64,000 bases of DNA, from the NCBI RefSeq assembly GCF_003018255.1, contig NZ_CP027441.1; one strand, given 5' to 3'. A program made the position numbers. The first letter of the stretch is position 1. The number at the start of each line of letters is the position of its first letter. Shown one piece after another: positions 1 to 3,000 of this stretch. Source of the DNA: Escherichia coli (GTDB taxonomy: Bacteria; Pseudomonadota; Gammaproteobacteria; Enterobacterales; Enterobacteriaceae).

Positions 1-3000
1 TATCGCTGGCGTACTGATGCAGGTCCGGCTCAACAAAGGTGGCGGGTTCCAGCTTCAGCGTGGACAGGTCGCACAACTGCCGGTACTCCGCCGGAAGATG
101 CAGTTCCAGAAAATCTCTGGCGACGTCGGGATTCGCCAGGAACGACCGGAACGCGGCATCATGCGGCGTGGGCGTTGTGGTGTTTTTCTTCTTACTCACG
201 GTTCCTCCTGGTGAGATGTCTGAACGTATCCTGCCGCCTGCACAGGCAGACGGCAAGGGTTAATCAGTGGCAGACCCGCTCAATTTCAAGCGCGCGGAGC
301 AGGTGGCCCCATTCGCTGACTTTCATGGCGGGGATACGTACCCGCTTCTGCTCACTGCAGCGTCTGGCGATATGACCGCCCATCGCCAGGACGTCCGGGT
401 TAATCTCATCCGGTGCCAGTTCCTGGCGTCTGAAGCGGGTATGGCGGTGCAGGGGTTTGTTCTCCCGCAGGCACTCTTCACGCAGACGCTTTACATACTC
501 GGCGGTTGCGAAGATAATTGATGGTCTCATGGCATAATCTCCATAGTTAGTGAATGAGATGCCGGACTTCCGTACGGGGAAGCGCCGGCGGAGAAAGGCA
601 GGGTTTATCGCCCTGCCTTTTTTCATTTCGGACAGCGACGCAGTGCCAGCGCGAGCGCTTTCATCTTCCAGCCTTCCGGCGTGCGGTACATCACATTCCA
701 GTAGCCGTCGATGAACACATAATGGAAGCGCACCTCTTCAGTGCTTTCAGTGGCAATAGCCTCCATGAAAGAACGGTACTCACGCGCCTCACTGTCCATC
801 CGGAAACCACTGTCACGTCCGTAATAAGCCGTCACACCGTCCACCGGGTTCTGAAGCGTATGCCCGGCGGGTTTGTCGCAACGGGGACCAAGGCAACGGA
901 TATCACCGTGTTCAACCAGGGCTTCGGCCTGCTGACCGGTGGCATAGTGGGTATGCAGGATGCGACCGTTCCAGGCCGGCTCACCGTGCAGGTGGCAGTA
1001 AACGGTACGGAACACCCCGTCGCGGCAAAAAACAGAAATCGTGCTGCTGACTGTCATGAAAACGTCTCCTTCTGCTGAATCAGGTCGCCGGACCGACCGG
1101 TTGCTCCCCGGAGGGGCGAAAGCCCCTTCTGCCGTCCACTTCTTCGGGGTTTCTCCCCGCAGTGGACCTTTCCGATGGGGCAGCGACAGCCACGGCACGG
1201 GGCAGTTGTCCGGGGGCAGACGCAAAAGTTTTTGACGCTTGCGGCAAAAAGTTTTGTGGCTGGTACATCTCCCCCCTGGACGGCTGACACGTGTTGTGGC
1301 CGCTTCAGCCCCCGGAAAGTCCACAGCGGGAAACAGGCCGCAGGGGTGGCGGCGGAAGGGCAGACAACTGCGCCATCAGGCGCAGTTTCCTTACACACCG
1401 TCAGGTGTGCAGGGAGCGCAGGTCACGGCGCGACAGAGGCGGCGCGACCGGAACGGTCGCTGCAAGCCTGGTTTTTCAGACATCGGACCGTAGCGGCAGC
1501 CCGAAACCGCGCCAGCGGGTTCGGCGGAGACTGGCGGGTGCGCCAGCAGCTGCCTGTCGGAGTCGGGCCTGACGACCGGATGCCGCCAGGCAGCCGGGAG
1601 CCGAAGGGTGTCCCCGCCCCCGGGAGTCAGAACAACAGAAACGACAAAACAGAAAAATGCCTCACACTATGACAGGCAGGAAGGGCAGCGCCGCAGGCGC
1701 GGCCCTCCTGTATTTCAGGCAGGCGTAAGCCTGCCAGGGTTTTCCGGCGGCCCGGCAGGCCATACCCCCGCCGGAGCGGGGGAGTAAATCACCGACGGAA
1801 CACATGACCGTCAATAAAGGTGAAGGAGTCCAGGAATAAATCCCGCGCATACGCCTCATAGTCAAAATAGAGCGCCACCGTCTCCGGCACGTCAGCCAGC
1901 AGGCCGGTATCACTGACGAACTCAACCGCAAAAGCCTCCTCACTGTCAGCCTCGCCCCACCAGGCATCGCGGAAGCTGTCAAAATCCGTCTCACCGGTAT
2001 CATCCACCCAGAGACGATAAGCCTCTTCGCAGCCTTCATCCCGTGCCTGGCGGAAGCCTTCAACCCAGGCCCAGTTGATATGGCATTCAGAGGCCATATT
2101 CCCCGGGAATCCCTCATAATCCTGAAACATCAGTTCAGGATCGGCTTCATCCTGGTGAAGAGCACGGCAGGCGGCGAAAAAGTCGCGCTCATCATCAAAC
2201 GTGGTCAGGTCAAACCAGCGTCCGGCGATGCTTCCACAGTTGTATTTGTGCCAGGTTCCAACGTATACAGCAGGTGCAACAACAGACATTCCCGAATCCT
2301 CCATAGTCACATGTTCTGCGACACCGGGCGGTGCCGTGCCTCCATCTTTGCCGGGCCTGCTGGGATGCAAGGGCGCAAGGGAAGCCGCAGCCCGACGCGC
2401 ACGGCTGACGGGAGTTGGAGGGTGAGACCGCGAAATCTGAGCGGGTGAACGACCGGAAAATCACGGCAGACGGGAAGGAGGGACCGGGTGACCGCAGCGG
2501 TTCATCTTACCTTGCATCCCGCCCGCAGAAGCCCGGCTACGATGGAGGCACGGCACAGCCCGCACACGACGCAGAGGCCACATAACTGAAAACCCACAAG
2601 GCCATGCCCCGCATGGCCGGGTAAAAGCGGAGCCGCCGGCGACTTCCTTATTCCGATGAGAGCAGAGGACACGCCGCATGACCTCCAGACCACCCCTGAT
2701 ATGAAACGATCATGACCGGCATGTCCCTGCCCCTCAAGCATACCTCCACTGGTTCACCGAAGAACATCCGTGATGCTCACAAGTTTTCTGTCGCGCAGCC
2801 AGTCCTGCGCTTCACGCACCACACAACTGTCCGGTTTCACCGCTTTCAGCGATGATGCCAGTCGCTTGATCAACATCACCAGTTCCCGTGTCTGTATGTC
2901 CGGCATTGTCTCCGGCGGAGCAGAGGGACTCTCATTTCCGACGCCCATCCCATGCGCTTCCAGTGTGGCACGGACAAACCAGGCAACATCGACCAGTTGC

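What the first reader, a model, noticed from the sequence alone, without database searches (positions are those of the whole stretch)
1100..1700. Family A long GC-rich hairpin repeat, two copies (1100..1700 and 7255..7790), each just upstream of a leading-region operon
Two ~550-bp segments are about 90% identical and carry internal inverted arms that can fold the single strand into a long stem-loop. Copy 2 lies directly upstream of ssb, copy 1 upstream of the 144-aa gene at 623..1057. This matches the described behaviour of Frpo/ssi-type single-strand promoters, which let leading genes be transcribed from incoming ssDNA. Spurious ORFs in the track (for example 1175..1672, 7320..7793) arise from this non-coding repeat.
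Basis: partly seen in the sequence, partly recalled or inferred. Interest (0 to 1): 0.5.

Follow-up and report, generated by a model that had tools for sequence, protein, structure and literature searches.

The report
Known single-strand promoters of IncI plasmid
The two repeats are copies of the already described ssi/Frpo "class 1" single-stranded-DNA promoters that let a conjugative plasmid switch on its first-entering genes before it is double-stranded, so the finding is correct but ordinary; only the outer third of each repeat, a separate conserved folded module, seems undescribed.

Summary
Window 1109-1610 and 7266-7768 are direct repeats of about 500 bp, 88% identical, not 550 bp. Each folds on the + strand into a 175-nt imperfect hairpin (1156-1330; 7314-7490).

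The window is the leading region of an E. coli IncI-type plasmid (NZ_CP027372.1), and the + strand is the transferred strand. Copy 2 is 99.4% identical to ColIb-P9 ssi3, the single-strand promoter upstream of ssb. Copy 1 is a mosaic of ssi2, ssi1 and ssi3. A third copy lies just left of the window.

These are the published class 1 ssDNA promoters (Frpo/ssi/ssp1), shown by others to drive early gene expression in recipients. Novelty: already known.

One addition. The last 150-200 nt of each repeat (core 1460-1612; 7620-7772) lie outside the published 330-nt ssi unit. They form a separate multi-hairpin module with strong covariation. It recurs, always in the same orientation, in leading regions of IncF, IncL/M, Klebsiella, Citrobacter, Pantoea and Mixta plasmids. 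It has no Rfam family and no phage match. Its function is unknown; I suggest a transferred-strand priming or roadblock element.

The parts
1109..1610 (+). Family A repeat, copy 1 (whole repeated span)
   Evidence: 88% identical to 7266-7768; 100% identical to NZ_CP027372.1 3546-4096
1109..1436 (+). ssi/Frpo unit (class 1 ssDNA promoter), copy 1; mosaic of ssi2 (stem base), ssi1 (apex) and ssi3 (tail)
   Evidence: 87% to ColIb-P9 ssi2 and 85% to ssi1; block-wise identities of 100% to ssi2, 97% to ssi1 and 98-100% to ssi3
1113..1126 (+). GGGGCGAAAGCCCC mini-hairpin at the 5' edge of the ssi unit (GCGAAAGC core; ssi1 has GCGAAGC)
   Evidence: read directly from the sequence; folded; the exceptional stability of d(GCGAAAGC) comes from my own knowledge and was not tested
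1156..1330 (+). Main imperfect stem-loop of copy 1 (70 pairs; apex loop 1238-1241; A/T-rich apex stem 1222-1257; unpaired bulge 1263-1271, GTACATCTC)
   Evidence: DNA fold -65.8 kcal/mol on + against -52.9 on the complement; 241-nt fold z = -8.35; 62 consensus pairs, 5 compensatory, invariant G-T pairs
1255..1283 (+). Candidate promoter boxes on the 3' arm (the arm with RNA-like polarity): TTGTGG (1255-1260), 17 nt, TGGACG (1278-1283). Inferred, not verified.
   Evidence: a TTGnnn hexamer followed after 16-17 nt by TGGAC (or a near variant) is seen in the F, IncI, Klebsiella/Serratia and Salmonella class 1 sequences (read by eye); published box positions could not be read
1368..1409 (+). Two short hairpins inside the ssi unit (CTGCGCC-ATCA-GGCGCAG; CACACC-GTCA-GGTGTG)
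1412..1477 (+). Linker block with two hairpins (GCGC..GCGC; GCGACCG-GAA-CGGTCGC), also present next to both Frpo copies of plasmid F
   Evidence: 94-95% identical to F at L127 8175-8238 and 13562-13627; alignment
1460..1612 (+). Junction module, copy 1. Closing helix 1481-1490 with 1564-1574; hairpins 1499-1524 and 1529-1550; hairpin 1576-1597; conserved tail GGGAGCCGAAGG to 1608. Not part of the published ssi unit.
   Evidence: covariance model R1, 117.7 bits, E 3e-24; RNAalifold on the MAFFT alignment, 12 of 27 pairs compensatory; 97.2% of cells paired against 88% in shuffles
623..1057 (-). 144-aa gene directly downstream of copy 1 (hypothetical protein WP_000218847.1), followed by an 88-aa ORF at 264-530
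   Evidence: annotation; no Pfam or NCBIfam match
7266..7768 (+). Family A repeat, copy 2 (whole repeated span)
7266..7596 (+). ssi3 (class 1 ssDNA promoter upstream of ssb), copy 2
   Evidence: 99.4% identical to ColIb-P9 ssi3, AJ238399:11381-11711
7314..7490 (+). Main imperfect stem-loop of copy 2 (apex loop 7395-7402; bulge around 7422-7430; candidate boxes TTGTGG 7414-7419 and TGGACA 7436-7441)
   Evidence: -61.1 kcal/mol on + against -48.8 on the complement
7620..7772 (+). Junction module, copy 2
   Evidence: model R1, 109.8 bits, E 2e-22
6666..7199 (-). Plasmid ssb, first gene of the operon downstream of copy 2 (then DUF905, a ParB-like region, psiB, psiA)
   Evidence: NCBIfam PRK13732, E 5e-114; annotation

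Best explanation
Each repeat carries a class 1 single-stranded-DNA promoter of the Frpo/ssi family (ssi3 upstream of ssb; an ssi2/ssi1/ssi3 mosaic upstream of the 144-aa gene).

Proposed mechanism:
1. During conjugation the + strand of the window enters the recipient 5' end first, as single-stranded DNA.
2. Segments 1156-1330 and 7314-7490 fold back into a 175-nt imperfect hairpin whose stem imitates duplex promoter DNA: an A/T-rich apex stem, a TTGnnn hexamer, a bulged spacer and a conserved TGGAC box.
3. Host sigma-70 RNA polymerase binds the hairpin and transcribes leftwards, using the 5' arm and then the downstream gene complement as template.
4. This gives early, transient ('zygotic') expression of ssb-psiB-psiA and of the 144-aa gene.
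5. The promoter is extinguished once complementary-strand synthesis irons the hairpin into duplex. The transcript may also prime that synthesis.

Shown here: sequence identity to characterised elements, the fold, its strand bias and covariation, the transferred-strand polarity, and the lack of a consensus duplex promoter.
Taken from the literature: promoter activity, transcription start sites, and dependence on the single-stranded state.
Inferred: the exact box positions and the activity of the mosaic copy 1.

The distal 150-200 nt of each repeat are a separate conserved module, not needed for Frpo function in plasmid F.
For: Identity to published ssi1-3 (sequences read; blastn: 99.4%, 87%, 85%) and 77% identity to the core of F ssiD/Frpo.

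More than 5000 plasmid records carry the element, 12145 places in all, mostly conjugative Enterobacteriaceae plasmids.

Fold: z about -10 for the 551-nt segments and -8.35 for the hairpin. The + strand is 12-19 kcal/mol more stable than its complement. The consensus hairpin has 62 pairs, 5 of them compensatory, and G-T pairs invariant across the five sequences compared that would be A-C mismatches on the other strand.

Polarity: nikB/nikA (annotated as relaxase and MobA) sit at the end of the circular record, next to record position 1, and every leading-region gene is on the minus strand. The + strand is therefore both the transferred strand and the template.

The sigma-70 consensus scan finds nothing on the minus strand upstream of either operon.

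Literature:
- In vitro Frpo activity and the dependence of early expression on Frpo1/Frpo2 in F (PMC9849209).
- ssi1-3 named class 1 promoters, with 5'-RACE start sites in the IncI1 plasmid pESBL (PMC12672017).
- An Frpo-driven anti-CRISPR works only on the leading transferred strand (PMC11541004).
- The repeats were already noted as R1-R3 in IncI plasmids (PMC3817090).
Against: No experiment exists for this particular plasmid. Copy 1 is a recombinant of three ssi types and has not been tested.

I could not place canonical -35/-10 hexamers. The best conserved pair, TTGTGG-17-TGGACG, is a poor -10 match, and the -10-like TACATC lies in the bulge at the wrong spacing.

Deleting Frpo2 in F did not reduce transfer frequency, so the fitness role is conditional.

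The right third of the repeat is not explained by the promoter model.
Confidence: 0.9

Rival explanations
1. The whole 500-bp repeat, including the distal module, is one promoter unit; the module would be an upstream activating or structure-nucleating part of the class 1 promoter.
For: The module abuts the ssi unit in both window copies. It also sits beside the F-type Frpo1 in IncFIA plasmids at 98-100% identity, while the hairpins themselves differ. Most modules have a strongly folding left flank.
Against: The third ssi copy of the same plasmid lacks it. Classic F, whose Frpo1/2 are active in vivo, has no match to the module model and carries other sequence there. Some modules stand upstream of AT-rich regions without any long hairpin. 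The published active units are only about 330 nt.
Confidence: 0.15
2. The hairpins act mainly as priming or stalling signals for complementary-strand synthesis (ssi in the original sense, or a replication roadblock like ssp2 of F), with transcription of downstream genes secondary.
For: Frpo transcripts prime DNA synthesis in vitro, and early conversion events downstream of ssp1 in F are rifampicin-sensitive. A class 2 hairpin stalls conversion (bioRxiv 10.64898/2026.01.09.698686; review PMC7690428).
Against: In F, deleting the Frpo elements abolishes early expression of the downstream fusions. In pESBL, class 1 promoters give the highest transcript levels. The roadblock was mapped to ssp2, not ssp1. 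Priming and promotion do not exclude each other.
Confidence: 0.1
3. The structure works at RNA level, as a leader or terminator structure in minus-strand transcripts made from a conventional duplex promoter further upstream.
For: Any hairpin in the + strand also exists, mirrored, in minus-strand RNA; read-through from the upstream operons is conceivable.
Against: The complement folds 12-19 kcal/mol worse, and conserved G-T pairs become A-C mismatches on it. No consensus duplex promoter was found. No Rfam family matches. Published start sites lie in the hairpins.
Confidence: 0.04
4. The repeats encode paralogous proteins (ORFs 1175-1672 and 7320-7793).
For: The two ORFs stay in frame over 127 codons at 80% amino-acid identity; some database records annotate a hypothetical protein here.
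Against: Differences fall evenly on codon positions (16/18/19), with 25 non-synonymous against 8 synonymous changes. Other reading frames look the same. 19 of 48 module homologues have no open frame on either strand, and their lengths are spread evenly over the three residue classes modulo 3. RefSeq annotates nothing here in the source record.
Confidence: 0.01

Closest known systems
ColIb-P9 ssi3, ssi2 and ssi1 (Bates et al. 1999; Nasim et al. 2004), called class 1 ssDNA promoters in pESBL (PMC12672017)
   Same: Same element. Copy 2 is 99.4% identical to ssi3 and holds the same position upstream of ssb. Copy 1 is 87% identical to ssi2. The hairpin, the strand and the overall six-promoter architecture of the leading region are the same (class 1 x3, class 2 x2, class 3 x1).
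   Different: Copy 1 is a mosaic: ssi2-type stem base, ssi1-type apex, ssi3-type tail. The distance between the copies is 6160 nt here against 7028 nt in ColIb-P9. The window holds two of the plasmid's three copies.
Frpo1 (ssiD, ssp1a) and Frpo2 (ssp1b) of plasmid F (Masai & Arai 1997; Couturier et al. 2023)
   Same: Homologous core (77% over about 110 nt): TGTCCGGGGG, an A/T-rich apex stem, TTGnGG, a bulge, CCCCTGGAC. One copy lies upstream of ssb, on the transferred strand. The adjoining linker hairpins (window 1412-1477) are 94-95% identical.
   Different: The outer stem and 5' domain are unrelated. F has two copies 92% alike. F lacks the junction module that follows the IncI copies and some IncFIA copies.
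Class 2 (ssp2) and class 3 (ssp3) ssDNA promoters
   Same: Same job and same setting: hairpin promoters on the transferred strand of the leading region. Both classes are present in this window (2307-2606 and 9053-9352; about 11676-11900).
   Different: No sequence similarity to family A; different hairpin architecture. A roadblock to complementary-strand synthesis has been shown for ssp2 only.
G4-type and phiX174-type single-strand initiation (priming) signals (comparison for the distal module only)
   Same: About 125-150 nt of single-stranded DNA with several hairpins and conserved unpaired bases, dependent on orientation. In a Pantoea plasmid one copy recurs every 1-4 kb on the strand that must be primed discontinuously.
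   Different: No sequence similarity to any phage record. No priming assay exists. The resemblance rests on my recollection of those signals and is a lead, not a test.

Membership tests
Class 1 ssDNA promoters (Frpo / ssi / ssp1) | Sequence homology to an experimentally characterised member | tested here: met
   99.4% to ColIb-P9 ssi3 (copy 2); 87% and 85% to ssi2 and ssi1 (copy 1); 77% to the F ssiD core
Class 1 ssDNA promoters (Frpo / ssi / ssp1) | Long imperfect stem-loop formed by the transferred strand, beyond chance | tested here: met
   Hairpins 1156-1330 and 7314-7490; z = -8.35 for the hairpin and about -10 for the 551-nt segments; + strand more stable than its complement; compensatory and invariant G-T pairs
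Class 1 ssDNA promoters (Frpo / ssi / ssp1) | Lies in the leading region, with the transferred strand as template for the co-oriented genes downstream | tested here: met
   nikA/nikB at the record junction, all leading-region genes on the minus strand, ssb and the 144-aa gene immediately downstream. The direction of IncI1 transfer relative to nikA comes from established knowledge.
Class 1 ssDNA promoters (Frpo / ssi / ssp1) | -35 and -10 boxes reconstituted in the double-stranded stem | tested here: inconclusive
   A conserved pair, TTGnnn then 16-17 nt then TGGAC, on the 3' arm, and a -10-like TACATC in the bulge.
Class 1 ssDNA promoters (Frpo / ssi / ssp1) | No activity as duplex DNA; no conventional promoter needed | tested here: inconclusive
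   The consensus scan finds no sigma-70 site on the gene strand in 500-2800 or 6600-9500. Absence of a consensus match does not prove absence of activity.
Class 1 ssDNA promoters (Frpo / ssi / ssp1) | RNA polymerase starts transcription on the single-stranded form; start site in early transconjugants | not testable with these tools
   Reported for F Frpo in vitro and for ssi1-3 of pESBL by 5'-RACE; not measured for this plasmid
Class 2 ssDNA promoters (ssp2; ardA/klcA type) | Homology to the ardA/klcA upstream hairpin | tested here: not met
   Family A shares nothing with 2307-2606 or 9053-9352. It is those segments that match F's ssp2 region at 88.6%.
Any Rfam family, including STAXI-like motifs (for hairpin and module) | Covariance-model match | tested here: not met
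   No match at gathering score in the whole window. No match up to E = 10 over 1000-2800 that overlaps the repeat.
Primase/primosome priming signals (G4-type, phiX-type ssi), for the distal module | Supports primer synthesis on SSB-coated single-stranded DNA | not testable with these tools
   Only indirect: orientation, multi-hairpin fold, spacing. No similarity to phage records.

The most novel reading that the evidence does not exclude
The distal 125-150 nt of each repeat (1460-1612; 7620-7772) may be an undescribed structured element, separate from the ssi promoter.

Structure: a closing helix (CATCRGACC with GGGCTGACG) encloses two to three covarying hairpins. A further hairpin and conserved unpaired motifs follow (CTAGCC, GGCGGAG, GACGAC, GGAGCCGAAGG).

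Distribution: it marks the upstream edge of leading-region transcription units in IncI, IncF, IncL/M (pOXA-48-like), Klebsiella IncFII(K), Citrobacter, Pantoea and Mixta plasmids.

Proposed action: on the transferred strand, as an entry site for host priming or as a barrier that shields the adjacent promoter from read-through transcription and complementary-strand synthesis.
Probability: 0.35. Interest if true: 0.6.

Novelty: already known. Interest (0 to 1): 0.2.

Why it matters
For the finding itself, little is at stake. It recognises elements described in 1997-2004 and mapped again in 2023-2025, in a plasmid backbone present in thousands of database records. It serves as an annotation: it explains why ssb-psiB-psiA and an uncharacterised 144-aa gene can be expressed within minutes of transfer, and why ORF callers produce false genes here.

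The possible added value is the distal module. If it proves to be a priming or roadblock signal on the transferred strand, it would be a new handle on how plasmids time the conversion from single to double strand, and thereby the length of their anti-defence burst. That question is currently being studied experimentally for F.

Tried and rejected
1. Rfam, whole window at gathering score and 1000-2800 at E up to 10: nothing relevant.

2. Reading Nasim 2004, Bates 1999 and Bikard 2010 (and so, indirectly, Masai & Arai 1997) for box and start-site positions: not held. The supplements of PMC12672017 are not held. The Couturier supplement holds only a figure legend.

3. Placing canonical -35/-10 hexamers by eye and by consensus scan on either arm: no convincing pair. 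TTGACG at the apex of the 5' arm points the wrong way. TACATC in the bulge has no -35 partner at 17 nt.

4. Coding hypothesis for the overlapping ORFs: rejected.

5. Deciding which strand of the module folds from wobble pairs: 11 G-T against 11 A-C cells, undecided.

6. Pattern scan of species genomes: the pattern was too loose for high-GC genomes, so most of the 120 stretches are chance hits in Actinomycetota and others. Only the Enterobacterales loci were confirmed by the covariance model.

7. Module against the phage collection: no match.

8. Intrinsic-terminator reading of the module: no U-tract follows any hairpin on the gene strand, by reading.

9. Module as an obligatory part of class 1 promoters: rejected, because F and the plasmid's own third ssi copy lack it.
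Full report
**1. Observation**

Window 1109-1610 and 7266-7768 are direct repeats. The repeat finder reports 1309-1608 against 7469-7768 at 96% and 1111-1237 against 7269-7395 at 83%. A pairwise alignment and blastn (88.2% over 501 nt) fix the limits. The repeat is about 500 bp, not 550-600, and there are only two copies in the 64-kb window.

As single-stranded DNA, the + strand of each 551-nt segment folds at -172.2 and -166.9 kcal/mol, with z about -10 against dinucleotide shuffles. 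The complementary strand of copy 1 reaches only -153.1, z = -5.9.

The long stem-loop takes up only the left third of each repeat:
- Copy 1: 1156-1330, 70 pairs, apex loop 1238-1241, a 9-nt bulge at 1263-1271.
- Copy 2: 7314-7490.
- For these hairpins alone the + strand is 12-13 kcal/mol more stable than its complement.

**2. Source and polarity**

The segment is 100% identical to E. coli plasmid NZ_CP027372.1 (IncI-gamma/K1 + IncFIB, MOBP, MPF_I). Window position equals record position minus 2456.

The relaxase and MobA (NikB/NikA) genes close the circular record just before position 1. Every gene from there through the window's first 13 kb is on the minus strand. By the established direction of IncI1 transfer (nikAB enter last), the + strand is the transferred strand and the template of these genes.

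Gene order in the window, all on the minus strand:
- 144-aa gene, 623-1057
- ardA, 1789-2289
- an ORF, psiA and psiB, between about 2754 and 4500
- a ParB-like region
- DUF905
- ssb, 6666-7199 (NCBIfam PRK13732)
- a klcA-type antirestriction operon, 7952-9034
- a DNA methylase, 10933-11616

**3. Identity**

Supplementary Table 2 of Samuel et al. 2024 lists the known Frpo/ssi sequences. blastn of these against the window gives:

| Published element | Window match | Identity |
|---|---|---|
| ColIb-P9 ssi3 | 7266-7594 | 99.4% |
| ColIb-P9 ssi2 | 1109-1436 | 87.3% |
| ColIb-P9 ssi1 | 1109-1434 | 84.9% |
| F ssiD (Frpo) | 1207-1315 | 77% |

A third copy, covering the ssi unit only, lies at record 683-1014, about 1.5 kb left of the window.

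Copy 1 is a mosaic. Its stem base is 100% ssi2-like, its apex 97% ssi1-like and its tail 98-100% ssi3-like. This is what recombination or gene conversion among dispersed repeats would produce. Venturini et al. 2013 already described these IncI repeats (R1-R3) and recombination between them.

More than 5000 plasmid records carry the element, 12145 places in all.

**4. What is known about the family**

- F Frpo folds into a stem-loop with double-stranded -35/-10 boxes and is transcribed by E. coli RNA polymerase in vitro; the transcript can prime DNA synthesis (review PMC7690428).
- In F, deleting Frpo1 or Frpo2 abolishes early expression of the downstream fusions in transconjugants (PMC9849209).
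- In the IncI1 plasmid pESBL, RNA-seq of early transconjugants shows six induced operons. Their hairpins are classed as class 1 (ssi1-3 and Frpo), class 2 (ardA, klcA) and class 3 (methylase), each with a 5'-RACE start site (PMC12672017).
- A 2026 preprint names them ssp1a/b, ssp2 and ssp3 and shows that ssp2 also stalls complementary-strand synthesis.

The window reproduces this architecture exactly:
- Family A is class 1.
- The second repeat family (2307-2606; 9053-9352) lies upstream of ardA and the klcA-type gene and matches F's ssp2 region at 88.6%.
- The inverted repeat at 11676-11900 lies upstream of the methylase, and the surrounding stretch is 95.9% identical to F.

**5. Support from the sequence itself**

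An RNAalifold consensus of five IncI ssi hairpins has 62 pairs, 5 of them with compensatory changes. Several G-T pairs are invariant on the + strand and would be A-C mismatches on the other strand. The sigma-70 consensus scan finds no site on the gene strand upstream of either operon.

The overlapping + strand ORFs (1175-1672; 7320-7793) stay in frame between the copies but show no coding signature. Differences fall 16/18/19 on the three codon positions, with 25 non-synonymous against 8 synonymous changes.

I could not place canonical boxes. Across the F, IncI, Klebsiella/Serratia and Salmonella variants, the best-conserved pair on the arm with RNA-like polarity is a TTGnnn hexamer followed after 16-17 nt by TGGAC or a near variant:
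- 1255-1260 and 1278-1283 in copy 1
- 7414-7419 and 7436-7441 in copy 2

The bulge sits in the spacer. This placement is an inference.

**6. The part the promoter model does not cover**

The published ssi units end near 1436 and 7596, but the repeat runs on to 1610 and 7768, and this stretch is its best-conserved part (96-100%).

This tail is 98-100% identical in IncFIA plasmids, where it follows the F-type Frpo1 although the hairpins themselves differ. Many plasmids match only this part of the query.

A first block (1412-1477, two hairpins) is also present beside both Frpo copies of classic F. The remainder (core 1468-1597) is a module found again in:
- Klebsiella IncFII(K) plasmids
- an IncL/M pOXA-48-like plasmid
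- a Pantoea MOBF plasmid with nine copies, roughly one per transcription unit at 1-4 kb spacing

All 16 copies in the six loci searched at that stage (the window plus five annotated plasmid loci) have the same orientation relative to the leading-region genes.

RNAalifold on a plain MAFFT alignment of 15 copies predicts a long-range closing helix around nested hairpins, with 12 of 27 pairs compensatory.

A covariance model built from that alignment found 48 copies in the window and in plasmid loci of Klebsiella, Pluralibacter, Citrobacter, Cedecea, Mixta and Pantoea. It found none in the chance pattern hits from high-GC genomes that were searched. On the 48 copies:
- 97.2% of cells pair, against 88% in shuffles.
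- 14 pairs show double changes.
- All slid controls collapse. This alignment is fitted to the model, which favours the structure.

A further hairpin after GACGAC also covaries (read).

There is no Rfam match and no phage match. Classic F has no model hit and carries different, possibly remotely related, sequence there. Because Frpo1/2 work in F, the module is not required for class 1 promoter activity. The plasmid's own third ssi copy lacks it too.

Some modules stand upstream of AT-rich, conventional-looking promoter regions with no long hairpin. Wobble statistics do not tell which strand folds: 11 G-T against 11 A-C cells.

The conserved unpaired motifs argue for recognition by a factor. Orientation, spacing and position at the upstream edge of each unit fit an element acting on the transferred strand. 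It could be a priming signal, or a barrier against polymerases arriving from the 3' side. This is conjecture.

**7. Verdict**

The element is a member of a known and recently well-studied family, nearly identical to published sequences. Novelty is "already known" and interest is low. The distal module is the one item that may merit follow-up.

Noticed in passing
window 1460-1612 and 7620-7772 (also L002 3054-3206, L005 8594-8742 and 11980-12129, L006 5980-6124, nine copies in L004): Conserved multi-hairpin module with strong covariation, adjoining but separable from the ssi promoter. It is widespread in leading regions of Enterobacterales plasmids, always in the transferred-strand orientation, with no Rfam or phage match. 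Classic F lacks it.
   Followed up: partly
window 2307-2606 and 9053-9352: Second repeat family (95% identical copies, 32-nt arms 174 nt apart), directly upstream of ardA (1789-2289) and of the klcA-type antirestriction operon (to 9034). It matches F's ssp2 region at 88.6% and is therefore the published class 2 ssDNA promoter.
   Followed up: partly
window 11676-11900 (query 11621-11960): Inverted repeat (30-nt arms 165 nt apart) upstream of the DNA methylase gene 10933-11616. The 340-nt stretch around it is 95.9% identical to F upstream of its methylase. It is the published class 3 ssDNA promoter (M.EcoGIX type).
   Followed up: partly
window 1109-1436: Copy 1 is a recombinant ssi: stem base identical to ColIb-P9 ssi2, apex 97% ssi1, tail 98-100% ssi3. 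This is evidence of gene conversion among the dispersed promoter repeats.
   Followed up: yes
window 623-1057 (minus strand) and 264-530 (minus strand): The two genes driven by copy 1 (144 aa and 88 aa) have no Pfam or NCBIfam match. As first genes behind an ssDNA promoter, they are candidates for establishment or anti-defence functions.
   Followed up: partly
window 1113-1126 and 7271-7284; L004 about 14975-14990: GCGAAAGC-type mini-hairpins (GCGAAGC in ColIb-P9 ssi1) sit at the edges of the promoter blocks on the transferred strand. As I recall, these are exceptionally stable DNA mini-hairpins, which would fit a DNA-level rather than RNA-level structure.
   Followed up: no
window 1714-1746 and 7882-7914: A conserved short hairpin followed by a T-run on the + strand (GGCAGGCGTAAGCCTGCC AGGGTTTT) lies between each upstream operon and the module. 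It is also conserved in IncFIA plasmids. It looks like a terminator for the + strand, which is antisense to all the genes. Unexplained.
   Followed up: no
window 4552-6320: Between DUF905 and psiB, where F and Klebsiella plasmids have a 2-kb ParB-like gene, the window shows two overlapping ORFs (4552-5265; 5220-6320). The plasmid gene table lists no CDS here. This may be a frameshifted ParB-like gene, but the table omits pseudogenes, so it is unverified.
   Followed up: no
L127 (plasmid F) 8040-8175 and 13430-13562, minus strand: In place of the module, F carries about 100 nt that share only short motifs with it (GCCCG, GGCGGAGAC, CACGAC) and resemble the tails of the Salmonella Frpo* candidates of Samuel et al. 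This may be a second, diverged module type.
   Followed up: no
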